NCBI RefSeq assembly: GCF_004010195.1
Contig: NC_057758.1
Location: 8,394,424 to 8,458,008, forward strand
Direction of reading: 5' to 3'
From: Chiloscyllium plagiosum
Lineage: Eukaryota
DNA: 63,585 nt
The translations under genes and the position numbers were made by a program. The notes under the pieces are model-generated. The model did no database searches, was not told where the DNA came from, and saw only the letters and a list, made by a program, of their open reading frames with translations. This document shows, in pieces, positions 1-61,011 of this stretch; the first letter of the stretch is position 1; each line of letters begins with the position of its first letter.

Positions 1-815
1 TTGATGAGCAGAGGGATCTTGGTGTCCACGTACATGGATGCCTGAAAGTTGCCACCCAGATTGATAAAGTTGTTAAGAAGTCATACGGTGTGTTGGCATT
101 AATTGGTAGAGGGATTGAGTTTCGGAGCCACGAGATCATGCTGCATCTGTACAAAATTCTGGTGCGGCTGCGCTTGGAGTTGCATACAGATCTGATCACC
201 ACATTACAGGAAGGATGTGGAAGCTTTGGTATGAGTTCAGAAGAGATTTACTAAAATGTTGCCTGGTATGGAGGGAAAGTCTTGTGAGGAAAGGATGAGG
301 GACTTGATGCTGTTTGTGTTAGAGAGAAGAAGTTTGAGACCTGAGTTAATTCCTGAAGAAGGGCTTGTGCCAGAAACGTCGATTCTCCTGCTCCTTGGAT
401 GCTGCCTGACCTGCTGCGCTTTTCCAGCAACACATATTTCAGCTCTGATCTCCAGCATCTGCATTCCTCACTTTCTCCTACTTGATTTAATTGAGACATA
501 TAAGGTAATCAGAGGGTGAGATAGGGTGGACAATGAGAGCATTTTTTCCTTGGATGGTGATGGCTAGCACAATGGGACATAGCTTTAAGTTGACGGGTAA
601 TAGATATAGATCAGATGTCAAGAGGTAGTTTCTTTACTCAGAGAGTAGAGGGGCATGGAAAGCACTGCCTATGACAGTAGTAGACTCGCCAACTTTAAGG
701 GCACTTATATGGTCATTGGATAAACATATGGATGAAACTGGGATACTGTAGAATAGATGGGCTTCAGATTGGTTCTACAGGTAAGTGCAACATCGAGGGC
801 TGTAATGTTCTGTAT
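1..815 (+). mobile_element. CR1-clade LINE (HER1-like) ORF2 3' end and tail, decayed
   Basis: Translates to CR1 C-terminal motifs (LYKILVRLRLE, FTKMLPGMEG, FFTQRV) followed by a 3' UTR ending ctgtaatgttctgtattctg; interrupted at 352-479. Confidence 0.9.
352..479 (+). mobile_element. Short PLE-derived insertion headed by a hammerhead motif (family A)
   Basis: cCTGAAGA-A-GGGC-ttgt-GCCA-GAAAC-GTC followed by the family tail; flanked by acctgagttaatt (339-351) and acttgatttaatt (480-492), 11/13 identical; CR1 sequence resumes on both sides. Confidence 0.8.
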
Positions 816-819
816 TCTG

Positions 820-2250
820 CTTTCCAAGGTGGCACAAGCAACTTATATTTCTAAGTTAGACTTGCTCAGAGAATACGGACAGGTACGTTTGTCAGAAAGA
901 GAAAAGGCAACTTCAGCTTTTGTAACACCGAATGGACTGTATCAGTTTGAAGTCATGCCATTTAGCATGAAAAAATGCGCTAGCCACATTTCAGAGACGA
1001 ACAATAAAGTCATTGCCGGATTATTCAACTATGTCGTTTATATGGATGATCTGGTGATTTTAGCCACACGTGGAAGGAACATTTAGAGCATTAATCGGAC
1101 TTGTTCAATCAACTTCAGAAGGGTGGCTTGGTGATAAACCTGACTAAAACTTAATTTTCCAAAGCCCAACTCACCTTCCTGACCCATGTTATTAGACTTA
1201 GACAAATGGTCCCATGGGATACAAAAACAAAGGTCATTGGGGAGTTTCCCATAAAATCCACAAAAGGAGCAGTACTATGGTTCCTGGGATTGAGTGGATT
1301 TTATCAAAAATTTCGACCAATTTTGGCAGTGTAGTTGCTCCACCCACTGAACTTTTAAAGAAAGTCAAGAAGTTTCAGTAGACAGTGTACTCTAAGAGGT
1401 CATTTGACAGCCTGAAAGCTGTGTTAACCACTTCGCTGGTATTAACCACTCCTAATTACACAAAGCCATTCAAGGCTATCGATGCGAGTGATGTGGGTGT
1501 CAGTGCTCTTGCAAGAAGATAATGAGAAGCTAGAAAGACCTATCGGGCATTTCTCCAGGAATTTGAGCATTCAGCAGCAGATATATTCAATGGTTGAGAA
1601 GGAGATTTTGAGCTTGGTGTTGGCATTACAACTTTTCTGTGTTTCTGTTACCAGTCAGACATCTGAATTGAGACTGTATTGCTGGGAAAGCACAGCAGGT
1701 CATGCAGCATTTGAGGAGCAGGAGAATCGACGTTTCTGGCATAAGCCCTTCATCAGGACTGACCTTATGCCTGAAACATCGATTCTGCTGCTCCTCAGAT
1801 GCTGCCTGACCTGCTGTGCTTTCCCAGCATCACACTCTCGACTCTGATCTCCAGCATCTGCAGTCCTCACTTTCTCCTAGAAATACATCTGAGACAATCA
1901 TATAGGGTGATCATAATCCATTGAAGTTTGTGGAGAAATTTAAGGACAAAAGTGCAAGACTGTTTCGATGGTGCTTATGGTTACAGCCATTCAATTTGAA
2001 AATTGTGCGATGAGAAAACATGATTACCGATGCACTGTCGAGAGTCGAATGGGAAACAGAAGCGTTTGGTGGTGGGAGTACAACTGACTGATATGGAATG
2101 TAGTTGTTTATATTTGCATGTCAGTAGTCAATATGATGTAAATGTGTGTTTCAGCATACCAACCAATTTTAAAATGGAGCCATCTTTGGAGATTGCTGGT
2201 TCTTTTTTTTAAGGGGGAAGGTGTGACAAAGCTGTTCCTTGTATATGTAT
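820..2250 (+). mobile_element. Ty3/Gypsy LTR retrotransposon remnant: RT, RNase H, PPT, start of 3' LTR
   Basis: AFVTPNGLYQFEVMPF and YMDD (RT); DASDVG, ERPIGHFSR, YSMVEKEILSLVLAL, DHNPL, TDALSR (RNase H); PPT aagggggaagg at 2211-2221 followed by TGTGAC; stops and frameshifts. Confidence 0.9.
1657..1880. mobile_element. Head-to-head inverted pair of family A HHR elements inserted in Gypsy RNase H
   Basis: Left arm (~1657-1745) is the reverse complement of the right arm (~1764-1855); minus-strand HHR core at 1726-1757. Confidence 0.85.
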
Positions 2251-4490: not shown

Positions 4491-5254
4491 GATCTGTCAG
4501 TTTGTTGAAGTTGTCTGATGAACTAGTATTAAATATGCATCTGCAGGTCTGTGAAGTTATTCTCCACTTCCTAATCAGATCTCCATTTTAAATCAAACAG
4601 CATTCTGTGATTCCTTCAGCCTCAGCTTCAGTGTGGGCTAATTGTATTAATTTGCTTAATGATAGATTTGCTTTCCAAGCCGCACTTCAGGCAAACTAAA
4701 ATATTCTTTTTAATTATACTATTTTTTACAGAAAGTTTTCACGACTCTAACAATGCTTATAGTATTATTCTGACCTCTGACGATGGCCTTTGTTTAGCCA
4801 TTGCTTTGGAATCAAGACACAATGGAAAATTCCCTGGCCCTTGTTCCTATGATTATTCTGCCCCTTTAACCTCACTCTGATTTTCTGTGATAGTTTGCTA
4901 AGCTCCAACGTACACCCCAGCCAAGTTACAATCTAGAAATAAAACAACCCTGTCCCTGGGTAATTCCTCACTAATCCGACCATCACTGTTACAAACATCA
5001 AGTCACATTCTAAGTGCATTTTGTACAAAGTATTTACTCTCCATTTATCCTGTTTATAACACTGGTTTACAGTGCATATTCTGAAGGAAAATCGGGATTC
5101 TCCTTCAGCAAAATAATTTACATCACGACATTATTGCTTTCCATCGTCATTGGTTTGTCTTCATCATTTGAAGACAAAGGAGTTACCTTCCCTTTCAACC
5201 AAAACTCTATATTCAGAGCAGTTTGTAACTCCAATTAAAATTATAATTGGATCC

Positions 5255-5905: not shown

Positions 5906-6253
5906 TATTTTCTGTTTGAGGTATATGGTAGTTTCTTTTTTAATCTTTTGAACCTCTTATGAATGTCAATATGTCCCAGAGACTTCCCAAACTTCCAGCA
6001 CCCTGAATGAGGTTGTCGCAATTCATTACAATAGAAACACTTCTATCTTCAGCACCTGACTTTCTCATGGAATTCCCAGCTGTCTGTTCTCTACTCTGGC
6101 TAATTACCTTCCTTACACTCTCCCATCCTCTATCTAACAGGATTTATGGGGTGAGGAAAAAATGGTTGAGTTGAATGGATCAGAATCGTCAGCCATTTCT
6201 GCTGCCTGCTTCACAGTTGGTATTCTCAGTAATCTATTAGCAGGTATGAAGTT

Positions 6254-6387
6254 TCCTGAAGAAGGGCTTTATGCCCGAAACGTCGATTCTCCTGTTCCCT
6301 GGAAACAGCAGCCTGACCTGCTGCGCTTTTACAGCAACACATTTTCAGCTCTGAACTCCAGCATCTGCAGACCTCACTTTCTCCTCC
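6254..6387 (+). mobile_element. Short family A HHR-headed insertion
   Basis: CTGAAGA-A-GGGC-tttat-GCCC-GAAAC-GTC at 6256-6284 plus family tail; direct repeat atgaagtt at 6246-6253 and 6388-6395. Confidence 0.8.
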
Positions 6388-6471
6388 ATGAAGTTCTGAG
6401 ACCCAGCTGATCTCTCTCCTTCTCGTCTGGTGATATTATTTACAACTAAACTCAACCCTTTTTCTAAGCAT

Positions 6472-7660
6472 GATTTAGAGATGCTGGTGTTGGACTGGGG
6501 TGTACAAAGTTAAAAAGCACACAACACCAGGTTATAGTCCAACAGGTTTAATTGGAAGCACACTAGCTTTCTGAGCATCGCTCCGTCATCAGGTGATAGT
6601 GGAGGGCTCAATCCTAACACACAGAATTTATAGCAAAAACTTACAGTGTGATGTAACTGAAATCATACATTGAAAGATTGATTGTATGTTAAGCCTTTTA
6701 TCTGTTAGAATACCATGATAGTTCCACTTCTTTCATGTGTAAATCACAAAACATTTTTTTTCAAAGTTGCATTCTCAGGTTAGCTGTTAACAATGGATGA
6801 TAGCTAGACAATATGTTGAAGGTGTTAGCCCCCCGTGTTCTCTGTCGATGCCATGATGTTTAGATTGATTTTAATCTAAAAAGTGATGTCGATGCCATGA
6901 TGTTTAGATTGATTTTAATCTAAAAAGTGAGATGACATGAATGCATGCAGTGTTTGAGCAAAGTACAATGTAATCCTGCAAGTACAAATTCACCCCACAA
7001 AATATATGTGTGCATGTGGGTCTTCGCCTGTGTGTGTGTGTGTGTCTGTCTGGGTTGAGTGTTTTGAGTGTGAGAAAGTGTATGTGCGTGTGTAGTGAGT
7101 GTAGAGTGTCTTAAGTCTGTGAGAGGGTGCATTTGTGAGTATGGGAGTGTGGGAGTGTGTGTGTCTGTAAGGGTGTGTGTGGGTGTCTGTGTGCACGTCT
7201 GTGTATATGTGTGTCCATGTGTATGTGTGTATAGGAGTGTGTGTGTGTAGGAGTGTCTGTGTGTGTTTGTGTAGGAGTGTCTCTGTGTGTGTATAGTGCA
7301 TATAGTGCAATGGTGGTTACCTATAATATGACATGAACCCAAGGTCCCAGTTGAGGCCCTCCCTATGGGACCCGAAGTTAGCTATCAGCCTCTGCTCAGC
7401 CACTTTTCGCTGCTGCCTGTTCCGAAGTCCGCCTTGGAGGATGGTTACCCGAAGTTCCGAGGTCGAATGCCCTGGACCACTGCAGTGTTTCCCAACTGGG
7501 AGGGAACACTCCTGTCTGTTGATTGTTGTGTGGTGCCCATTCATCCGTTGTTGTAGCCTTTGCTCGGTTTCCCCAATGTACAATGCCTCAGGGCATCCTT
7601 GCCTGCAATGTATAAGATAGACACCGTTGGCTGAGTCACATGAGGACCTGCCATGTACAA
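6472..7660 (-). mobile_element. Penelope-like element 3' end (GIY-YIG endonuclease, CA-rich 3' region, family B HHR)
   Basis: GVYLIHCRQGCPEALYIGETEQRLQQRMNGH...GLN is a GIY-YIG domain (7317-7660); (CA)-rich tract ~7000-7300; terminal region contains an HHR. Confidence 0.9.
6561..6595 (-). ncRNA. Minimal hammerhead ribozyme motif, family B
   Basis: Minus strand reads cac-CTGATGA-c-GGAGC-gat-GCTC-a-GAAAG-CTA-gtg: stem I cac/gtg, palindromic AGCT in place of stem III, CUA cleavage triplet; base of stem II mismatched in this copy. Confidence 0.7.
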
Positions 7661-8499: not shown

Positions 8500-8697
8500 A
8501 AAAAGGTGTTGCTGGAAAAGCGCAGAAGGTCAGGCAGCATCCAGGGAACAGGAAAATCGACGTTTCGGGCATAAGCCCTTCTTCAGGAATGAGGAACATT
8601 TGTCCAGCAGACTAAGATAAAAGGTAGGGAGGAGGGACTTGGGGGAGGGGCGTCGGAAATGCGATAGGTGGAAAGAGGTCAAGGTGAGGGTGATAGG
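8500..8697 (-). mobile_element. PLE 3' terminal region with intact family A HHR core (8555-8590), cut off by a gap
   Basis: Reverse complement closely matches 60615-60810; attc-CTGAAGA-A-GGGC-ttat-GCCC-GAAAC-GTC-gatt. Confidence 0.88.
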
Positions 8698-18989: not shown

Positions 18990-19640
18990 GTGGGGATCAT
19001 GGAAGGCCTGAGGATGGAAGGAAGGCAGAAGGGAACAGCGCTGCATCAGGAACTTATCCATCTACTATAAAGCAGGACAGTGAATATGTTGGTGCTATCG
19101 AGGATCCTGCGGCGTTTGATTCATGGCCAGCAGACATGGATAGGGCAGTCTATTCCTTCATCAGGAATGTCAGGAAGGCCTTTTCACCGGAATGTCCATT
19201 GTCCTGTTACTCGGATGCTGCCCGACATACTGTGCCTTTTCAGTGCCGAACTATCAGGCTCTGGTCTCCAGCATCTGCAGTTCTCACATTCTCCTTGATC
19301 AGATGCTCCAATGAGTGCGAGATGGAATTTGAGTTTAGTAAGACAACCCTAGGCAGAACATATACAGATAATAGTAGGAGACGAGGGTGAAGAAGACGTT
19401 TGGAATGTTTGGCTTCATTGGTCAGAACAGAGAATGTCGGAGCTGGGGTGATATGTTGCGGCTGTACAGGACATTAGTGAGGCCACGTTTGGAATACTGC
19501 ATTCAATTCTGGTCTCCCAGGTATAGGAGGAATGTTGTTAAATGCAGAAAACATTTAAGGATGTTGAGGGGGGATTTAAGCTATAGGGAATGAACAATAT
19601 GCTGGAGCAATTTTCCCTGGAGTGTTGGATGCTGAGAAGT
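18990..19640 (+). mobile_element. CR1 fragment carrying a decayed family A insertion (~19153-19294)
   Basis: MLRLYRTLVRPRLEYCIQFWSP; insert ends ctccagcatctgcagttctcacattctcc. Confidence 0.75.
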
Positions 19641-25999: not shown

Positions 26000-26375
26000 T
26001 CATACAAGTTATATGATCCCTGCAGTATGGAAACAAGCCATTTGGCCAAGCATATCCACGCCTACCCTTCGTAGATGAACCCATCCAGACACCGTTCCCT
26101 ATCCTATAACTCGATATTTACCAATGGCTAATGCACTTAATATACACATCCCTGAAGAGTATGGACTATTTAATTTGGCCGATTCACCATAACTGCAAAT
26201 CTTTGGATTGTGGGAGGAAACCGGAACAGTTGGAGGAAACACACGCCCATATGTGGCGAAGGTGCAAAGCCAAAACAGACCACTAATTCTCTGTCATTCT
26301 TTAATTGGAGGAAACACACGCAGATAGGTGGCGAAGGTGAAAAGCCAACACAGACCAGCAATTCTCTGTCATTCT
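26000..26375 (-). mobile_element. Diverged V-SINE-type SINE with a local ~75-bp tandem duplication
   Basis: ttggattgtgggaggaaaccgga core; ttggaggaaacacacg...aattctctgtcattcttta occurs twice. Confidence 0.7.
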
Positions 26376-29914: not shown

Positions 29915-30232
29915 GGCTCGGTGGCACAGTTATTAGCACCGCTGCCTCACAACGCCAGAGACCCAGGTTCAATTCCCGCCTCAGGCGACTGGCTGTGTGG
30001 AGTTGCAGATTCTCCCCGTGTCTGCGTGGGTTTACTCTGGGTGCTCCGGTTTCCTTCCATACTCCAAAAATGTCCACGTTAGATGAATTGCCCATGTTAA
30101 ATTGCCTGTAGTGTTAGGGGAATGAGTCTGGGTGGGTTGCGCTTCGGCGGGTCGGTGTGGACTTGTTGGGCCAAAGGGCCTGTTTCCACACTGTAAGTAA
30201 TCTAATCTAATCTAATCTAATCTAATCTAATC
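29915..30232 (+). mobile_element. HE1/V-SINE-type SINE with (TAATC)n tail
   Basis: ggctcggtggcacagttattagcaccgctgcctcac head; central domain; tail repeat at ~30197-30232. Confidence 0.92.
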
Positions 30233-32369: not shown

Positions 32370-32700
32370 AAGCGGCGACATTGTCTCAGTTGTTCGTCCT
32401 CCTGCCTCACAGCGCCAGGGACACGGAATCGATTCCAGCCTTGGACGATTATCTGTGTGGAGTTTGTACACTCTGCCTGTGTCTGCGTGGGTTTCCTCCG
32501 GGTGCTCCGGTTTCGTCCCACAGTTTAAAGATGTGCTAGTTAGGTGGATTGGCCGAGCTAAATTGCCCATTGTGTTCAGGGATGTGTAGGTGAGGTGCAT
32601 TAGTTAAAATAAATGGCCTGGGTGGTTTGGTCTACGGACCATCAGTGTGGACTTGTTGGCCTGAAGGTCCTGTTTCCACACTGTAGGGCTTCAATGATTA
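32370..32700 (+). mobile_element. HE1/V-SINE-type SINE
   Basis: ctgcctcacagcgccaggga head; tgtgtggagtttgtacac...gtgtctgcgtgggtttcctccgggtgctccggtttc. Confidence 0.9.
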
Positions 32701-34619: not shown

Positions 34620-35010
34620 TCCAATAAGAACACTCAGTCTAATATACACAAGGGGTCCTTAGGGTAGAGAGCATGATTATTGCCTCTTCGGTCCTACTCG
34701 TGCATGTTAACCAGATAGCATAAATTAATCCAGTCCTATTTTTCAGCATTTGGCACCTTTCGCTTTGAACCATTCATATTTATGTATGATCGAGATACAT
34801 TTTAAGTGTAGTAATCGCATAATCCTCCACGACTTCCTCTGGCAGCTCATATCATATGTAGACCACCGTCTGTGTGAAATCGTTGTAACTTGAATATCTT
34901 GTAAAACTTTCCCCTTACTCCTTAAATCTATGCTTTGTCTCCACAAACCTTGGAAATTGATCTTTGATATTCAATCTATCTATGCCTATCACGATTTCAT
35001 GTACTTCAAT
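34620..35010 (-). mobile_element. Old CR1 3' end
   Basis: acttcctctggcagctcatatcata is similar to the reversed CR1 C-terminus. Confidence 0.6.
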
Positions 35011-35011
35011 A

Positions 35012-35101
35012 ACCTGATGAGGGAGCAGCGCTCCGAATGCTGGGGCCTCCAAATATACCTGTTGGACTAATACCTGCTGTTATGTGATTTTTAACCTTGT
35101 A
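35012..35101 (+). mobile_element. Short family B HHR-headed insertion (core mutated)
   Basis: cCTGATGA-g-GGAGC-agc-GCTCC-GAAtG followed by cctgttggacta...gtgatttttaac; reverse-complement homolog of ~6500-6595. Confidence 0.7.
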
Positions 35102-36419: not shown

Positions 36420-37620
36420 TGGCAGGGACAGATGAACTGGCAGAATGGAATGAAGTTCTGACACCAAAGAGGGAGAAAATCAGGACCCTTCTGGGTCGTT
36501 CTTCCATCACTGCCGCATCTGAAAACAGGGGGACCGACTCACTCCAATATATACAACATGTGTGTCATTTTCAAAGAATGCAATTTTCCCTCCCACATGG
36601 TCAACAATGCCTTCCAGCACATCTGTCCCACAACCTGCAACTCTTCCCTCGAACACCAACCGTCCAATTGCAAAAAGGTCAGCACATCCCTTGTCCATAC
36701 CTTCCACCACAACGACCTCCGGAGAAAAAGCAACATCCTCGCCTTTTAGGCCACCGACAAACAGACCCCACCATCAGAGATATAGTTACCTCCCGACACC
36801 TATCTCTGTTCCACAGAGTCCCAATCATCCACAATTCCATTGTTAGGTTCACGCCCCACACCAACACACCCCTCACTATCGGCACCAGCCCTTGGCGCCG
36901 CAGAAGATGTAAAATGTGCTCCAAAACCTCGCTTCCGATCCCCATTCAAGACCTCAGAAACCCAACGACATTCGAGAGAAATTTTCCTGCCCCTCCACAT
37001 ATGTCATCTACTGTGCTCTTGGTCTCAGTGTGGTCTCCACTAAAGTGGTTAGACAAAACGTCAACTTGCAGAACGGTTCAGTGAACATCTCTGCGACGCA
37101 CTTTCTAAAATATACCTCACCACCCTGTGCTCTGACACTTCAACTGCCTTTCCGACTGCGCCAAAACATGAAAGACCTGGCCATCCACCGCTGCCAAATG
37201 ATATCTACGCGATGCCTGAAGGAAGTATGCCTCATCTTCTGCCGTGGGACCCTCCAACCACAGAGGATAAATATCGATTTCACCAGTTTCCTCATTTCCC
37301 CTCGCCCCAACCTTATGCCACATCGAACCATCCAAATTTGCACCATCGTGTTAAACTGCATTACCTGTCCATCTTCCGTCTCACCTCGTTATTCCATCCT
37401 CCACTTCGACCTATCACCATCACCCTCAAAATTCATCAACCTCGCGCTCAGCCAACTTCGCCCCAGCTCACCACCTCCCATTTATTTCTCAGGCTTCTTA
37501 ACGCCCCCTTCCCCCCCGCCACACCATATTCTTGATGACGATTTATGCGTGAAACATCGATTCACTGCAACTCGGATGCTGCGTGAGTAGTTATGTTCTT
37601 TTTCCAGCACCACACGTTTT
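36420..37620 (+). mobile_element. Decayed PLE 3' half (Cys-rich linker, GIY-YIG, degenerate family A HHR at ~37530)
   Basis: GTSPWRRRRCKMC, FSCPSTYVIYC, LIFCRGTLQPQRINIDF; cttgatgacgatttatgcgtgaaacatcgatt. Confidence 0.8.
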
Positions 37621-39479: not shown

Positions 39480-41920
39480 GCCATTGCAACTCTCTGAGTA
39501 AAGAAACTAGCTCTGACATCTCTCCTCTATCTATCAACCCTCAACTTAAAGTCGTGTCCCCTCGTGCTAGCCATTACCATCTGAGGGAAAAAGCTTTCTG
39601 TGTCCACCCTATTTTAACCTGTGATTATCTTATATGTCTCAGTTAAGTGAACTCTCAACCTACTTTCCACTGCAGAAAACAGTCTCAAGTACCACAGCCT
39701 TTCCTCATTCGGCTTTTCCCCCACACCAGGCAACATCCTAGTAAATCTCTTCTGCACCTTTTCCAGAATTTCCACATCCTTCCAATAACGCGGACTCCAG
39801 ACCTGTACGAAATACTCCAAGTGCAGCCGCAAAAGAATTTTGTACAGCTGCAGCATGACCTCATGGTTCCTAAACTCAATCGCTCTACCAATAAAACCTG
39901 ACACACCGTGTGCATTCATAACAACCCTGTCAACCTGGATTGAACGTTTTATGCAACTATGTACATTGATGCTGAGATCTCTCTCCGCATTTACACGACC
40001 AAGAATCTTAAAATTGTCTTAGTACTCCTTTTTGGCTTTACTCCTTCCAAAGTGAATCACCTCACACATTTCCTATTAAACTCCATTTTCCAACTCTCAG
40101 ACCAGTTCGACATTTTATCTATGTCCCACTGTCACCTGCAACGTCTTTCAGCACAATTCACAATTCCTCCGACTTTGGTACCATTTTCAAATTTACTAAC
40201 CCACGCTTCTATGCCCTCATCTCGGTCATTTATAAAAGTGACAAACGGCCGTGGCCCCAAAACAAATAATTTCTGTATACCAGTAAAACTGAACTCCAGG
40301 ATGCACATTTACCATCAACCACCGACATCTATCTTCTTTCACCCAACCAATTTCTGATCCAACCTGCCAAATCACACTCAATCCCATTCCTCCGTATTTT
40401 GTGCAATAGCCTGCCATGGGAAACCTTGACAAACGCCTTGCTGAAATCAGTTTACGCCACATCAATCAATTTACACTTATCAACTGTTTGGCCACCATCT
40501 CAAAGACATCAATAAGGTTGCTGAGGCACGATCAACCTTTCACAAAACTTTGTTGACGAACCAAAATCAATTTATTCCTCTAGAGATGATTACAAATCCT
40601 GATTCTTATAACTTTCTGCAACACTGCAGAAAACTAAAGTAAGGCTCACTAATCTGCAATTAACAGGATTGTCTCTCCTGAGTGTCTTCAACAAGGGAAC
40701 AGCATTTGCTATCTTCCAGACGTCTCGCATTTTTGCTGTTTACAATGACGAAATAAAGTTTATCGTTAAAGTTTCGGCTATCCCCTCCCTGGATTCTCAG
40801 AGAATTTTAGTGTACATTATATCAGGTCCAGGGCACTTCTTTTATTTTTACACTTTTCAGAACTGTGAACCACTCCAAATTGTGGCCCTCAATCCCACCT
40901 AATCTTGTAGCCTTTATCTCAGTATTCTCCGCGACAGCATTGTGTTTTTCCATTGTGAATATTGACGAAAAAGTAATCATTTAGCGCTTCTGGTATCTCC
41001 TTGGATTCCACGCACAATTTACTACCACTGTCCTTGACTGGCCCGAATCATTTTCTGACCATTCATTTATTCCTGACGTTAAAGTTTCGGCTATCCCCTC
41101 CCTGGATTCTCAGAGAATTTTAGTGTACATTATATCAGGTCCAGGGCACTTCTTTTATTTTTACACTTTTAAGAACTGTGAACTACTCCAAATTGTGGCC
41201 CTCAATCCCACCTAATCTTGTAGCCTTTATCTCAGAATTCTCCGCGACAGCATTGTGTTTTTCCATTGTGAATATTGACGAAAAAGTAATCATTTAGCGC
41301 TTCTGGTATCTCCTTGGATTCCATGCACAATTTACTACCACTGTCCTTGACTGGCCCGAATCATTTTCTGGCCATTCATTTATTCCTGACAATCATGTAG
41401 AAAGCTTTAGGATTTTCCTTGATCCCCTCCGAGCCCTGCTTAGCATAGTCCTTAGTTTTTTCCTGGCTAACCTGAAACTCTCAAACCTCCGAATTGGACC
41501 TTCACGTCTCATTCTCACATAAGCCTTCTTCTTCCTCTTGACAAGACATTCAATTTCTTTAGTAAGCCACGGCCTCCTCGCTCGACCTCTTCCTCCCTGC
41601 ATGACAGATACATCCTTATGAAGAATACTCAGTGGCTGTTACTGAATTATTCTTTACATTTCAATGATTCCCACCCCTGCAGTTTCCTTCCCCATCCTAT
41701 TATCATATTTTCTTTTCCCAGCAGCAACTGCTGCCCTGCGGAAGACACCTATCCCTTTCTATTGCTAAATTAAACATAAATGAATTGTGGTCACCATTGC
41801 AAGAGTTCTCACCTAAATCCAAACTAACACCTGGCCAGGGTCATTACCCAGTACCAAATCCAATGAGTTCTCACCGCTTGTAGGCCTGTCAACATATTGT
41901 GTCAAGAAACCATTCAACCA
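39480..41920 (-). mobile_element. CR1 LINE ORF2, decayed
   Basis: MLQLYKILLRLHLEYFVQVWSP...FTRMLPG; RPWLTKEIECLVKRKKKAY. Confidence 0.92.
40764..41390. repeat. Tandem duplication, 313-bp unit, inside CR1
   Basis: cgttaaagtttcggctatcccctcc starts at 40764 and 41077; about five substitutions between units. Confidence 0.95.
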
Positions 41921-45690: not shown

Positions 45691-45998
45691 GATTAGATTA
45701 GATTAGCTACAGTGTGGAAACAGGCCCTTTGGCCCAATAAGTCTTTGAAACGTAACCCACACAGACCCAGTTCCCTCTGACTAACGCCCCAAACACTGTT
45801 TTGTCAATTTAACATGCCCAATTCACTGACCTGCACATCTTCGGATTGTGGGAGGAAACTGGAGCACCCGGAGGAAATCCACGCAGACACGGGAAGAATG
45901 TGCAAACTCCACAGAGACAGTTGCCTCAGGCTGCAATTGAACCTGGATCCCTGGTTCTGTGGGGCAGTAGTGCTAACCACTGAGCCACCGTGCCGCCC
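45691..45998 (-). mobile_element. HE1/V-SINE-type SINE with (TAATC)n tail
   Basis: Reverse complement ggcacggtggctcagtggttagcactactgcc head; inserted at CR1 tttgat|aagg. Confidence 0.92.
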
Positions 45999-46870
45999 CA
46001 AGGTAGCACGGTGGCTCATTCAACAAGTAGAGATTCATGGGAGAGAGGGAAATTTGGCTACATAGATAAAGGATTGGCTGGTCCAGGGAATACAGAGGAT
46101 GGCAGTAAATAGAAAGTGTTCAGCCTGGAGAGACGTGTCCAGGCTTGTCGAACGAGAATCTGTTCTAGGATCTCTACTCTTTGTGATGTTTATAAATGCC
46201 TTGAATGAGGAAGCAGTAGGGTGAGTGAGCATGTTTGTCAATGGCGGGAATATTCGTGGAATTGCAGAGAGCGTGGAGGGCTGTTAAAGGCGACAATGAA
46301 ACATTGCCAATATACGGTGCTGGGTTAAGAAGTGGCAGATGGAGTTCAACCTGGAAAAGTCTGAAGTGATTAATTTTCTAACGTCCAATTTGATTGCAGA
46401 TTGCAGGGTTAAAGGTAGGATTCTTGGTAGTACAGAGGAACAGAGGAATCTTGGGGTCTACTTGCATAGATCTTCAGAATTGCCACACAAATTGGGAGGG
46501 TTGGCATGTGGGCCTATGTTATGTTGTCTTTGATTAACAGTGGGCTTTGACTTGTGAAAAAGTGAGGTAATGCTGTAACTCTATAAAGCTCTGATTAGAC
46601 CACACTTGGAATATTGTGTTCAGTTCCCGTCGGCTCATTACAGGAAGGACGTGAAAGCTTGAGCGATAGTGCAGAGAAGATTTAAAAGGATGCTGCCTGA
46701 ACGGAAGGGCAGTCCTTATGAAGGATGACTGAAGAAACTAGTGTTTTTCTCATTGGAGTGAACAAGGATGAGATGTAACTTGAAAGAGCTGTGCAAGATG
46801 ATGAGTGACATGGATGGAGTGACTGAACAAAGACATTTTCCCAGGGTGGAAATGGCTATCACGAGGTCCA

Positions 46871-47075
46871 GAGTCAAGCGTCGAGTGGTGCTGGAACAGC
46901 ACAGCAGGTCAGGCAGCACCGGAGGAGCAGGAAAATCGACGTTTCAGGCAGGAGCCCTTCTCCTATCCGAAACGTCAATTTTCCTGTTCCTCGGATGCTG
47001 CCTGACCTGCTGTGCTTTTCCAGTACGACTCTAATCTTGACTCTGATCTCCAGCACCTGCAGTTCTCACTTTCGC
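46871..47075. mobile_element. Head-to-head inverted family A element with 15-bp TSD
   Basis: ctatcacgaggtcca (46856-46870) and ctatcacgacgtcca (47076-47090); arms are reverse complementary around ~46955-46968. Confidence 0.88.
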
Positions 47076-47184
47076 CTATCACGACGTCCATAATCTCAAA
47101 CTGATTGCAGCAATTTGTTGGTAAAATGTCATAGGTAGATTCTTAGCACAGAGAGCTTCAGGTGCGTGAATGCACTGTCAGCAG

Positions 47185-47300
47185 GGCTTTTGCTGTAAAC
47201 GCCGATGTTCCTGCTTCTCGGATGCTGTTTGACCTGCTGTGCTTTTGTCAGCACCACACTCTCGACTCTAATCTACAGCATCTGCAGCCGTCACTTTTGC
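47185..47300 (+). mobile_element. Decayed family A insertion
   Basis: gggcttttgctgtaaacgccgat...ggatgctgtttgacctgctgtgctttt...cagcatctgcag; possible TSD tgtcagcag/tgccaacag. Confidence 0.7.
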
Positions 47301-47895: not shown

Positions 47896-48050
47896 GTGTG
47901 ATGCTGTTCCAGCACATCAGTTCAGGCACCATCCGAGGGGCAGGAGAATCGACATTTCAGGCATAAGCCCGTCATCAGACTGCGACCTGATGTGAAATAA
48001 TTTTCCAGCACCACACTCTCACCTCGAAACTCCAGCATCCGTTTACCTAA
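47896..48050. mobile_element. Inverted family A element (minus HHR at ~47947-47979 plus a short plus-strand tail)
   Basis: gaatcgacatttcaggcataagcccgtcatcag followed by ttttccagcaccacactctc. Confidence 0.75.
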
Positions 48051-49099: not shown

Positions 49100-51620
49100 A
49101 CTTACACAGTATGACAGAATGGAGATAGGCCCTTTGGCTCAAACGGATCCATGCCAACCAAAATGTTCAATGTCGATAACTGATTCCCCTGCAGTAGACC
49201 TATATCCTTCTGAATCTTTCCTATCCATGAATTTGTCAAAGAGAATTTTAAACGGTGCATCACATCATTCCTTGCCATTTCTGCCACCTAAAAATGAACC
49301 CCACAGCAGAGATATTTTTCCCTCCACACCAAGTCCAATTTCCATCAAGACTTTTCCCTCCATGACTCTCCACGTCCCCTACCATTACACCCTCTCCTCC
49401 CAGCACCTTACTCTGCCACCGCAGGAATTACAAAACATCCGTCCACACCTCTGTCCAAGGCCCCTCCACTACTATCAAAGTTTTACCTACACTTCCACAT
49501 ATGTCATTGACTGTATATATTATTGCTCGTGTGGTCTCCTCGACATTGCAGAGGAAGGAACACGACTGCAGCGCGCTTCCATAACATCTGAGGGATGCCC
49601 ACACTAATGAATCCTACCATCTGGTAGCCGAAATCTTGCACTCCTCCTCCAAGTCTGCCAATGTTATGCAGCTCCATGGTTTCCTCCAAAACCACACTCT
49701 AACTAGCTGACGCGTGTTGTAAGAGCACCTCGTCTTCGGCCTTAGGACCCTCCAACAATACCGCAGCAAATGGTCTTCCCCTCCCCCATGTTATCCAAGT
49801 TTTAATCTTCCAACTTGGCACTGATCTCATATCCGTCTCACCTGCCAATCCTCCTTCCCACCTATCTGCTCCACCTCTTCTCCGACCTAACGCCATTACG
49901 CACACCTCCATCTAACTATTACACTCTCAGCTACGTTCCCCCAGCCACACCCAGCTCACTTTTTATCCACTCCCTCGAATTGCAAGCCTCATTCCTGATA
50001 AAGAGGTATTGCCCGAACCAATGATTCTCTTGCTCCTCAATGTTGCCTGACCTGCAGTGCATTTCCAGTACCAAGCTCCCGCTTTTTGAATGTTGCTAAC
50101 TTACCCGCCTCAACCACGTGCGCTGGCAGCTTATTCCATATGTGTACCACTCTCTGTCAACAATAGTCCCTCATCATGTTCGCTTTGATTCTTTCACCTC
50201 TAACCTGATGCCCTTTAATCATTTATTCGCCAACTCTGAGAAAAACACAAGTTACTCACAATATCTATGTCTCTCATGACCTTACACAACTTATTAACAC
50301 CCCCCCCCCCGCCACAGCCTCCTTCACGTTAAAGACCGAAGTCCTAGCTTGTCCAAACTGATAGCTGTAAATTTCTGCTGCACTCTTTCCTCTTTAATAA
50401 TCATCATTTCTAATGCAAGGTGACAAAAACGGATCACAATACGCCAAGTGAGTTCTCACCAACATCCTGTACAGTTGGAAAGTAGCTTCCCAACTTCAGT
50501 ACGCAAAACCCTGACAAGCGAAATCCAGCAGGTCAAAAACCTTCTTCACTTACCTTTTACCTATGTCTCCACTTTCATAGAACTGTGAATCTGAACTCGA
50601 AGTTCCCTCTGCTCTACTGCACCCCGAAAGGCCCGAACATTCATCGTGGAACTCCTACCTTAACATGATTTTTGAATATTCAATACCACACACTCACCTG
50701 TATTAAGCTCCATTTGGCATTTCTCGACCAACTTCCCCTTTTTTTCACTTTCATGTTCCATTTTCTGTTAACCTTTCTCAGTATCCCCGATACCTCCTAT
50801 TTTAATTTAATCTGCAAATTTACGAATTTCGTCTTGTACGTTATCATTCAAATCATTGACATGATCAATAAACAACAATGAACAGAGGACCAACACTTGA
50901 AGGCCTGGGGTTACAGGACTCCAACGAGTGTCCTCCTAAAATTACTGTCTGTTTCCACACCAAACTAATCGTGCGTCCCGTTTCCCAGGTCTCCCTGGAT
51001 TCGGAGCAATCTGACCTGCAAGAACAGCCTCCCAAGTGAAGCCTTTACTAAGCCCTCACTGAAATCCATAGAGATATATTTCCTTTGATATATTTAAGAA
51101 CCTCTTTCAACACACCCTAATCTTCTCAACCAAGGCAATCTAGTGCCACCTCTTAATTTCTTCATCAATATTTTTCATCAATATCCTGCATCCCTGATAT
51201 CAAGGTATTTTCTGCATCTAGCTGCCAGTACCTGAGCCATTCATCTTGTGTATTTTTCTGATCAGAGCCTCAATTGCCCTTATCAACCAGAGATCTGTAT
51301 TACTGTCAAATTTGCTTTTCATGCTCCCTGGAAAATACCGAAATTTAAATCGAACGACCTCTCTTTTAAACGACTCCCACTTGCCACAGTTGCCCTTGAC
51401 TGGAAACACACTATTCCAATTAACTTCTGCAAGTTCCTCTCTCATACCATGAAAATTCGCCTTGCCCCAGTTTCGACCTAGACCCTGTGAAACAGTTTTG
51501 TTCTTCTCCACAACTATTTTAAAATTAATAGAACGATGTCACTTGACCCAAGGTGGTCGACCACTTCCACCTCCGTCACCTGTTCTGCATTGTTTTCCCA
51601 AGTCGGGTTTTGCATCTTCC
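49100..51620 (-). mobile_element. Old CR1 interrupted by a decayed plus-strand PLE 3' half (~49260-50085, degenerate HHR at ~49992)
   Basis: CR1 NWGKANFHGMREELAEVNW; PLE FTYTSTYVIDCIYYCSCGLLDIAE (GIY-YIG-like) and attcctgataaagaggtattgcccgaacc. Confidence 0.7.
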
Positions 51621-58310: not shown

Positions 58311-58349
58311 CCCTGACTTATTACCACAGGTGCTGTCAGACCTGATGAG

Positions 58350-58662
58350 ATTAGATTAGATTAAATGCAGTGTGGAGACAGGCCGTTCAGCCCAACTAGT
58401 CCACGCCGACCCGCTGAAGAGCAACCCACCCACACCCATTCACCTGCCTTTAACCTGACTAATGCATCTTACACTACGGGCAATTTAGCATGTCCAATTC
58501 ACCTAAACTGCACTTTTTTGGGGAATGTGGGAGGAAATCGTGGCACCCGGAGGACACCCACGCTGACATGAAAACTCAAAACAAACAGTTGCCTGAGGTG
58601 CATTGAACCCGACTCCCTGGTGCTGTGAGGCATCAGTGCTAACCACTGTGCCACCGTGCCGC
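58350..58662 (-). mobile_element. HE1/V-SINE-type SINE
   Basis: Reverse complement ggcacggtggcacagtggttagcactgatgcctcacagcaccagg; (TAATC)n tail. Confidence 0.9.
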
Positions 58663-60257: not shown

Positions 60258-60816
60258 AATATATTGGGGAGACAGGCCGCCTACTTGCGGAGCGATTCAG
60301 AGAGCACCTCTGGGCCACCCGGACGAACCAACCCAACCAACCTGTGGCACAGCATTTCAACTCCCCCTCCCACTCCACCGAGGATATGCAGGTCATTGGA
60401 CTCATCCACCGCCAAACCACAACAACCCGACGGTCGGAGGAGGAGCGTCTTATCTTCCGACTGGGAACCCTCCAACCGCAGGGGATGAACTTGGACTTCA
60501 CCAGTTTCTTCATCCCCCCTCCCCCCACCTGGCTCAGCCGAATCCCTCCAGCCCGGCACCACCTTCCTGACCTGCAGTCTTCTTCTTGACCTCTCCGCCT
60601 CCATCCTACTCCGACCTATCACCCCCACCTTGACCTCTTTCCACCTATCACATTTCCAACGCCCCTCCTCCAAGTCCCTCCTCCCTACCTTTTATCTTCT
60701 CCTGCTGAACACTCTCTGCCCATTCCTGAAGAAGGGCCTGTGCCCGAAACGTCGAATCTCCTGTTCCCTGGATGCTGCCTGACCTGCTGTGCTGTTCCAG
60801 CAATAAAGTTTCAACT
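60258..60816 (+). mobile_element. Young PLE 3' end (GIY-YIG C-terminal half, 3' region, HHR)
   Basis: YIGETGRLLAERFREHLWA...VAQHFNSPSHS...RLIFRLGTLQPQGMN. Confidence 0.92.
60722..60757 (+). ncRNA. Minimal type I hammerhead ribozyme motif, family A (best-preserved copy)
   Basis: ATTC-CTGAAGA-A-GGGC-ctgt-GCCC-GAAAC-GTC-GAAT: stem I ATTC/GAAT, stem II GGGC/GCCC, complete catalytic core, palindromic ACGT in place of stem III; predicted cleavage after 60753. Confidence 0.82.
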
Positions 60817-60896
60817 TTGATCCCTGCGGTACCCCACTGGCCACTGCCTGCCATTCCGAAATGGAGCCGTTTATCACTACTCTTTGTTTCCTCTGT

Positions 60897-61011
60897 TCGG
60901 ACAAAAGCTCTTCATCAGATTTCTGATGAAGGGCGTTTGCCAGAAACGTCGATTTTCCTGCTCCTCCATGCTGCCTGACCCGCTGTGCTTTTCCAGCACC
61001 ACACTCTCGAC
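60897..61011 (+). mobile_element. Family A element with a short inverted HHR head
   Basis: ttcggacaaaagctcttcatcaga-tt-tctgatgaagggcgtttgccagaaacgtc followed by the family tail. Confidence 0.8.

What the first reader, a model, noticed from the sequence alone, without database searches (positions are those of the whole stretch)
339..492. Stand-alone ~130-nt mobile element whose 5' end is a hammerhead ribozyme
Seen: copies at 352, 6254, ~60921 and (family B) 35012 start within a few nt of the HHR CTGANGA box and carry no coding sequence. Family A copies mostly end at the shared ...cagcatctgcag.cctcactttctcc tail. Direct repeats of 8-15 bp flank several copies (339-351/480-492, 6246-6253/6388-6395, 46856-46870/47076-47090). 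Known: PLE terminal repeats carry minimal HHRs. Inference: a non-autonomous, PLE-mobilised, retrozyme-like family. The 5' boundary lies ~30 nt upstream of the predicted cleavage site, so it is not a simple self-cleavage product and may reflect RT arrest at the folded RNA. I cannot tell whether this family has already been catalogued.
Basis: partly seen in the sequence, partly recalled or inferred. Interest (0 to 1): 0.78.

Follow-up and report, generated by a model that had tools for sequence, protein, structure and literature searches.

The report
Penelope leader run-off copies, not retrozyme
The 130-base insert is the ribozyme-bearing end repeat of a very abundant Penelope-like jumping gene, and it is likely a DNA copy of just the front of that element's capped RNA rather than a separate mobile family, which gives a testable clue to how these poorly understood elements copy themselves.

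Summary
The observation mostly holds; the interpretation only partly. Window 349-479 is the pseudo-LTR (pLTR) of a Neptune-type Penelope-like element (PLE); a near-full-length parent carries the same unit before and after its RT/GIY-YIG ORF. In 1.52 Mb of evenly spaced genome samples, 65 of 87 young segments that reach +9 stop within 20 nt around the hammerhead's 5' edge; 3 of 133 start at the predicted cut. 3' ends peak at about +94 and +130. The commonest young event is a palindrome (38 of 122; TSD in 28); solos are 25 (TSD in 6). Short and long copies share the same subfamilies, so no separate lineage shows. Where the templated C before +1 is missing, it is G in 3,444 of 5,724 genome-wide matches (26% expected; 13-19% at neighbouring positions), the signature of a copied RNA cap. 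Best reading: reverse transcription starts internally at two sites and runs off a capped 5' end; arrest at the ribozyme fold does not fit. No start site was mapped directly. The scan reported the same reading earlier on other DNA of this and related genomes.

The parts
349..479 (+). Solo pLTR of PLE family A, offsets +1 to +130 (+1 = A at 349)
   Evidence: 93% to a real long copy, L073; same unit flanks the ORF in L234
353..380 (+). Minimal type I hammerhead core (CUGANGA box, bulged A, 4-bp helix II, GAAA, palindromic CG, UC); predicted cut between 380 and 381; helix II closing pair mutated in this copy
   Evidence: sequence; descriptor fails here and passes at 6256, 60726, 8586; features as in PMC4209133
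443..479 (+). About 35-nt optional tail between the two 3' end peaks (+94 and +130), the inferred RT initiation sites
   Evidence: 3' end histogram; two-site initiation shown for the anole PLE in PMC11167929
339..351 (+). Left target duplication; its last 3 bases overlap the element's first three (microhomology)
480..492 (+). Right target duplication (11 of 13 identical)
6246..6395 (+). Second solo pLTR (+2..+131) with exact 8-bp duplication and intact hammerhead pattern
1675..1878 (.). Palindromic insertion: inverted arm to about +86, forward arm +16..+130
   Evidence: (I16)
46856..47090 (.). Older palindromic insertion with 15-bp duplication
   Evidence: (I18)
60903..61003 (+). Tail-less forward arm (+1..+86) preceded by a 16-nt inverted remnant
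60260..60822 (+). Long copy: PLE ORF 3' end running into the pLTR (-462..+101)
8502..8697 (-). Long copy cut by an assembly gap (-106..+89)
19174..19295 (+). Older family A-like copy (75%); others at 47180-47297, 47897-47978(-), 49987-50068
35009..35101 (+). Family B copy: tail-less end repeat of a second hammerhead-bearing family, core mutated
6482..6600 (-). Second family B copy

Best explanation
The 130-nt unit is the pLTR of an endonuclease-bearing, Neptune-type Penelope-like element, and the solo and palindromic copies are likely run-off cDNAs of the first ~94 or ~130 bases of its capped, uncut RNA. Shown: the unit lies both before and after the RT/GIY-YIG ORF; 3' ends fall at two sites; 5' ends pile up at the hammerhead's 5' edge, often after an extra G; copies carry ~14-bp target duplications. 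Inferred steps: (1) an internal Pol II promoter starts the RNA at or within a few bases of +1; (2) the PLE protein nicks both target strands about 14 bp apart; (3) RT starts inside the RNA at +130 or +94, and when it does so in the 5' pLTR it reaches the cap after only 94-130 bases and adds a C opposite it; (4) if one strand primes, the cDNA end anneals to the other target end by microhomology and gives a solo; (5) if both prime, one at +130 and one at +94, the two cDNAs join head to head and give the palindrome; (6) initiation in the 3' pLTR of read-through RNA gives the long copies, and a jump from one RNA's 5' end to another RNA gives partial tandems. The hammerhead is a passenger in most of these events.
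For: Parent structure: L234 has the unit at 1174 and 4599, ORF start, RT and GIY-YIG pieces between them, and a flanking duplication; Pfam RVT_1 hits at E 5e-6 and 2e-8; C-x4-C-x2-C linker read from the translation fits the Neptune/Nematis motif in PMC8557442. 5' peak: 65 of 87 uncut young segments reaching +9 stop at -10..+9, or 65 of 101 if the 14 gap-cut long ones are counted. 3' peaks at +90..99 (55 of 155) and +125..139 (67 of 155) match the two in vitro initiation sites and tail of the anole PLE, where both strands are cut and extended and hammerhead mutants still insert. Extra G: 3,444 of 5,724 non-C matches, 2,705 of 4,985 after removing the inverted-arm overlap, against 26% expected; 13 of the first 100 listed at +2 and 19 of 100 at -1. 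In the first 30 such loci, 21 have G (20 independent): 6 explained by the inverted arm, 7 shared with the target duplication, 7 by neither (read by eye); G occurs on four haplotypes. Untemplated G is the accepted cap mark for L1 and SVA (PMC4859970). Asymmetry: 38 of 40 inverted events have exactly one arm reaching +120, none has two.
Against: No transcription start was mapped. The 5' peak is spread over about -8..+10: non-templated junctions at +2 (6,146) are as many as at +1 (5,724), and 2,917 lie at -1, some of them plain mutations. In the strictly unselected sample, before separating subfamilies, G was only 7 of 28 non-C cases, because an older subfamily has T there. One third of the G cases read (7 of 20) share the G with the target, so an endonuclease target preference could contribute. 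Long copies are common: 11,664 exact matches to the upstream junction against 27,266 to the hammerhead 29-mer. Only 6 of 25 solos had a TSD. Pfam found no GIY-YIG hit; that domain was read by eye. The G test was not done for family B.
Confidence: 0.72

Rival explanations
1. An independent non-autonomous retrozyme-like or SINE-like family: some solo copies act as masters, are transcribed and are re-copied in trans by the PLE protein.
For: Solos hold the hammerhead, both inferred initiation sites and possibly the promoter. Short copies outnumber long ones. pLTRs suffice for trans mobilisation in a rotifer (PMC3846280). Internal initiation would erase 3' flank evidence of a master. Mean short-short distance (5.1) is slightly below short-long (5.7).
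Against: No short-private allele at 10% or more; the eight commonest haplotypes are in both classes; 88 of 140 short copies are as close to a long copy as to any short one; 35 different centres in 38 palindromes. No tandem array, no cut-to-cut monomer.
Confidence: 0.1
2. The RNA 5' end is made by processing, not by transcription initiation: an exonuclease stops at the protein-bound hammerhead helix I, and RT adds an untemplated base at the end.
For: In both families the peak lies about 4 nt before the core box, at the helix I edge. The peak is ragged.
Against: The G excess is confined to +1 among three positions tested. Helix I is weak (2 to 4 pairs), and the unit folds no better than shuffles (z -1.4 to +1.4). 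+1 lies in an initiator-like TCATT context (consensus recalled). Penelope has an internal promoter (PMC2377424).
Confidence: 0.09
3. RT arrests at the folded hammerhead within a longer RNA, or an antisense RNA self-primes to give the palindromes (PMC3846280).
For: The boundary coincides with the ribozyme. Head-to-head palindromes are common, and arms within a palindrome are more alike (2.1 mismatches) than random arms (4.0).
Against: Stops lie beyond the fold, not at its 3' side; arrest gives no reason for a position-specific G; self-priming predicts neither the G on sense-strand starts nor solos with the same boundary. Arm similarity also fits one RNA copied twice, or gene conversion.
Confidence: 0.06
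4. Solo pLTRs arise by recombination between the two pLTRs of full-length copies, or by random 5' truncation.
For: Solos without TSD exist (19 of 25), and PMC3846280 suggests recombination for such solos. PMC4209133 ascribes single motifs to truncated PLEs.
Against: Random truncation cannot give the 20-nt peak. Recombination would keep the variable upstream part of partial tandems (L234 starts at -364) and cannot make palindromes with one long and one short arm.
Confidence: 0.03

Closest known systems
EN+ Penelope-like element insertions with pLTR, inverted 5' copy, 30-40-bp tail and TSD (PMC3846280, PMC8557442; passages read)
   Same: pLTR before and after the ORF, inverted partial copy, one-sided ~35-nt tail, TSD, solo pLTRs, Neptune/Nematis-type linker.
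   Different: Here most insertions hold no ORF at all, number in the hundreds of thousands, and share one 5' boundary with an extra G; the passages read propose antisense self-priming or recombination instead.
Poseidon element PAc of Anolis carolinensis (PMC11167929; main text results read, supplement figures not visible)
   Same: Two internal RT initiation sites defining the tail, both strands cut and extended, uncut RNA as template, hammerhead near the ORF start.
   Different: PAc is Poseidon clade and its ORF starts in stem II; here a 26-codon uORF starts in loop II and the ORF at +167. The text read does not map 5' ends or a cap G; Fig. S2 could not be seen and may bear on 5' ends.
Minimal hammerheads of metazoan PLE pLTRs (PMC4209133; parts 1-2 read)
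   Same: Core boxes, bulge between 9 and 10.1, G10.1-C11.1, palindromic 15.2-16.2, thousands of dispersed single motifs, pairs on opposite strands.
   Different: Helix II is 4 bp and helix I weak; the single motifs look like 5' leader copies rather than truncated 3' ends; activity untested.
Non-LTR retrozymes (PMC7229834, passages; bioRxiv 10.64898/2026.07.22.740005, parts 1-3)
   Same: Small, non-coding, type I hammerhead, related to PLE pLTRs, TSDs longer than 4 bp.
   Different: Retrozymes are head-to-tail tandem repeats with canonical hammerheads and circular RNAs; these are solo or head-to-head, with minimal hammerheads and ends not at the cut.
L1 full-length insertions with untemplated G, and L1 twin priming (PMC4859970, passages; twin-priming mechanism recalled)
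   Same: Extra G at the 5' junction; inversion by priming from both target strands.
   Different: Fixed internal priming sites, no poly(A), and arms that usually overlap.

Membership tests
EN+ PLE pLTR | Same sequence flanks an RT + C-terminal GIY-YIG ORF on both sides | tested here: met
   L234 unit at 1174 and 4599 around the broken ORF; RVT_1 hit; GIY-YIG read by eye, no Pfam hit
EN+ PLE pLTR | Optional 30-40-bp tail at one end | tested here: met
   3' peaks about +94 and +130; one long arm in 38 of 40 inverted events
EN+ PLE pLTR | Inverted 5' copy, partial tandems, TSD | tested here: met
Neptune clade | C-x2-5-C-xx-C linker between RT and EN | tested here: met
   C-x4-C-x2-C in L002, L234, L239 translations; motif; shared with Nematis
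Neptune clade | RT phylogeny with reference elements | not tested
   no reference PLE proteins were fetched
Minimal type I hammerhead | Core boxes, helix II, palindromic 15.2-16.2, UH | tested here: met
   79 hits vs 0 in shuffles; met at 6256, 60726, 8586; not at 349 or 35012, which are mutated
Minimal type I hammerhead | Self-cleavage | not testable with these tools
   3 of 133 starts at +33; a small genome-wide excess at +33 (25 of 100 listed of 1,365 vs 7 of 100 of 1,242 at +34) is confounded by microhomology and its junctions were not inspected
Non-LTR retrozyme | Head-to-tail tandem units with a hammerhead in each | tested here: not met
   1 tandem in 122 young events; none in the window; tandems include ORF sequence and mostly restart near +1
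Non-LTR retrozyme | Canonical hammerhead with full helix I and III | tested here: not met
   no helix III stem, weak helix I; no Rfam hit
Non-LTR retrozyme | Monomeric linear and circular RNAs | tested here: inconclusive
   poly(A) single-cell reads show copies inside host transcripts, no defined ends and no joint of +130 to +1; such libraries lose small circles
Independent non-autonomous family (SINE-like) | Own lineage with diagnostic changes absent from the autonomous partner | tested here: not met
   140 short vs 56 long copies, 86 columns

The most novel reading that the evidence does not exclude
Because a solo keeps the start site, the hammerhead and both RT initiation sites, some solos may be competent for re-mobilisation in trans: a ~130-nt Pol II-driven, ribozyme-bearing SINE-like element that is founded again and again from each PLE subfamily and so never shows private changes. 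Its junctions would also be a genome-scale record that PLE inverted ends come from paired priming at +130 and +94 on capped sense RNA.
Probability: 0.15. Interest if true: 0.7.

Novelty: new member of a known kind. Interest (0 to 1): 0.42.

Why it matters
How PLEs make their pLTRs, inverted ends and tails is an open question. The published proposals read here are ribozyme-cut circular templates (PMC4209133), antisense self-priming (PMC3846280) and internal initiation on uncut RNA (PMC11167929). The ends of these copies favour the last and add two testable points: the template is capped with its start at the hammerhead's first base, and the two initiation sites are used as a pair, one per target strand. 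It also means that many 'dispersed minimal hammerheads' and 'retrozyme monomers' in vertebrate genomes may be dead-end leader copies. About 84 young events per Mb (roughly 280,000 by extrapolation) make the family a large source of short hairpins in host transcripts.

Tried and rejected
Rfam: three weak hits, none a hammerhead; two reflect palindrome hairpins. MFE folding does not give the hammerhead and is no better than shuffles. RNA runs: no RNA holder listed among indexed runs. Raw single-cell reads of X19 showed a depth step at +1 with mixed flanks and no place where many molecules begin; X20 gave no reads. This is no test of a start site. A first G test on all subfamilies was negative (7 of 28); 13 or so of those rows belong to an older subfamily with templated T, so the test was repeated genome-wide on one exact 30-mer. 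A minor peak at the cut site stays open: the junctions of the +33 matches were not inspected; among loci in hand 2 of 172 start there. A splice-acceptor-like site near -24 shows no 5' peak. PDB and phage searches with the ORF pieces gave nothing useful. Literature searches listed no paper on this family, on cap G in PLEs or on PLE twin priming; Dfam and Repbase are not available here, so prior cataloguing of the family is unknown. Rows dropped: segments under 88% identity in the unit, fragments of another family starting at +50, 23 gap-cut 5' ends in the histogram, 5 of 127 events at locus edges, 22 gap events in the TSD test.

Full report
Setting. The window lies in a 3.56-Gb genome, G000:C49:8394424-8458008. 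It is repeat-rich vertebrate DNA with one rhodopsin-family GPCR ORF. That it is a shark rests on recalled repeat types and on earlier AI notes; I did not test it. I number the unit from +1 = the A at window 349; the hammerhead core starts at +5 and the predicted cut lies between +32 and +33.

Observation. The unit at 349-479 and the three quoted direct repeats are present. The unit interrupts a LINE-like repeat that is continuous in four other window copies. The window holds 13 family A-like segments. They are not all solos: 1675-1878 and 46856-47090 are palindromes, 60260-60822 and 8502-8697 run upstream into PLE body, and 60919 is tail-less with an inverted remnant. A minimal hammerhead descriptor built on PMC4209133 (parts 1-2 read) hits 79 times in 1.52 Mb and 0 times in two shuffles. 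It passes three window copies but not the one at 349, whose helix II closing pair is mutated. Rfam gives no hammerhead.

What the unit is. Upstream of the unit in long copies lies the end of a PLE ORF; downstream in other copies lies the ORF start at +167. Locus L234 holds both: a partial copy from -364, the unit at 1174, ORF start, RT and GIY-YIG pieces in different frames, the unit again at 4599 ending at +94, and a flanking duplication. RVT_1 hits two of four ORF pieces scanned; the GIY-YIG region and a C-x4-C-x2-C linker were read by eye. That linker marks Neptune and Nematis elements (PMC8557442, passages). The unit is therefore the pLTR, which is also the start of the mRNA.

End distribution. 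I took 160 evenly spaced 10-kb stretches (1,520,483 called bases). They hold 307 segments, 156 of them at 88% or more in the unit. Of 133 with an uncut 5' end, 53 start at offsets 0..+9, 12 at -10..-1, none at -20..-11, 22 further upstream, and 3 at +33. Fourteen of the 23 gap-cut segments also extend upstream. 3' ends peak at +90..99 (55 of 155) and +125..139 (67 of 155); none pass +160. Of 122 scored young events, 38 are palindromes, 25 solos, 18 shorter solos, 16 long 3' ends, 2 palindromes with body, 1 tandem and 22 touch a gap. TSDs were found in 28 of 38, 6 of 25, 2 of 18, 2 of 16, 2 of 2 and 1 of 1; swapped-flank controls gave means of 0.3 or less. Median TSD is 14 bp. Some 'solos' have short inverted remnants below the detection limit.

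Why the 5' end is there. For one exact 30-mer starting at +1 the genome has 15,396 matches preceded by the templated C and 5,724 preceded by another base, 3,444 of them G. Removing 739 where the inverted arm supplies the G leaves 2,705 of 4,985 (54%; 26% expected from composition). At neighbouring junctions G is 13 of the first 100 listed (+2; 6,146 matches) and 19 of 100 (-1; 2,917 matches), about 29% expected. In the first 30 loci, 21 have G, two of them one duplicated locus. By eye, 6 are explained by the inverted arm, 7 share the G with the target duplication, and 7 have neither source, three of them at palindrome centres right after the inverted arm stops. G occurs on four haplotypes, so it is not one master's variant. 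Untemplated G marks cap copying in L1 and SVA (PMC4859970, passages). Penelope has an internal promoter (PMC2377424, passages), and +1 lies in an initiator-like context (consensus recalled). Against: the peak is ragged, the first pooled test was negative (7 of 28), target preference may add G, and RNA reads gave no start site. RT arrest fits poorly, since stops lie beyond the fold and the unit folds no better than shuffles.

Palindromes. In 38 of 40 inverted events exactly one arm reaches +120 and none has two, whereas single-arm events end there in 14 of 41. At least one arm reaches -10..+10 in 33 of 38. Centres fall into 35 classes in 38, so they are made anew. Two search-derived loci with ORF-extended forward arms (L085, L091) have an inverted arm to about +131, so the rule is not absolute. 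The anole PLE cuts and extends both strands, starts at two internal sites, uses uncut RNA and is predicted to be a dimer (PMC11167929, results read; supplementary figures gave no usable text). Paired priming at +130 and +94 is my inference from this. PMC3846280 (passages) instead proposes antisense self-priming.

No separate lineage. Among 140 short and 56 long copies over 86 columns, the eight commonest haplotypes occur in both classes, no allele is private to short copies, and 88 of 140 short copies are as near a long copy as any short one. The sample is small and partly search-derived; in the unselected subset (45 short, 25 long) the result is the same, apart from one haplotype at 2 against 0. 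Retrozymes as defined in PMC7229834 (passages) and the 2026 preprint (parts 1-3) are tandem units with hammerheads in each; that is not met.

Family B. Ninety-five segments show 3' ends near +85 and at the query's end (+122), 5' ends clustering just before the core box, and many palindromes. Its parent ORF was not sought and the G test was not done.

Does the ribozyme cut? Few copies start at +33 (3 of 133; 2 of 172). Genome-wide, purine-preceded +33 matches (25 of 100 listed of 1,365) exceed pyrimidine-preceded +34 matches (7 of 100 of 1,242), but microhomology with the inverted arm could explain it, and the junctions were not inspected. Earlier notes report U6 fusions at the cut; I did not test them.

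Verdict. The element is a new member of a known kind: pLTR stubs of a Neptune-type PLE. The mechanistic reading (capped template starting at the hammerhead, paired initiation sites) was not found in my searches and is directly testable. I reached it before consulting earlier notes; several of those notes say the same for other DNA, which is not independent support, and one gave me PMC3846280.

Noticed in passing
window:43268-44278 (+): Intact single-exon 336-aa rhodopsin-family GPCR ORF (Pfam 7tm_1, E 5e-22), the only clear host gene seen.
   Followed up: partly
window:36850-37590 and 49530-49756 (+): Decayed bodies of older PLE families (about 66% to family A) with GIY-YIG-like residues; a weak pLTR-like match follows at 37543-37615.
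   Followed up: no
window:22518-24037 and 40764-41390: Near-identical tandem duplications of 861 and 313 bp (98%); may be recent or assembly artefacts.
   Followed up: no
window:5408-5730, 26128-26279, 29915-30217, 32382-32603, 45795-45994, 58344-58544: Abundant SINE-like repeat (resembles HE1/V-SINE, recalled); polyadenylated reads of it are abundant in X19.
   Followed up: no
L071-L095 (G000): Many short composites: unit, first 70-130 nt of the ORF side, then a restart near +1, consistent with template jumps from one RNA's 5' end to another RNA.
   Followed up: partly
L073 oriented, about -50..-24 upstream of the unit: Strong 3' splice-site-like sequence (pyrimidine tract then AG) in the PLE just upstream of the hammerhead; in D. 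virilis Penelope an intron ends at helix I. No 5' end peak here.
   Followed up: partly
unit +48..+56 with +105..+112: The tail is predicted to pair with the middle of the unit, enclosing an AC-rich loop that ends at the +94 site; the anole PLE also initiates in an AC-rich stem-loop.
   Followed up: no
L010/L011 (G000:C19) and L249/L250 (G000:C1): Insertions duplicated together with their flanks, one pair inverted about 900 bp apart and one pair 3.7 kb apart.
   Followed up: no
run X1 laid on L234:1120-1290: One contig joins +35 back to +1 with a single extra G between, in a run of a different organism label.
   Followed up: no
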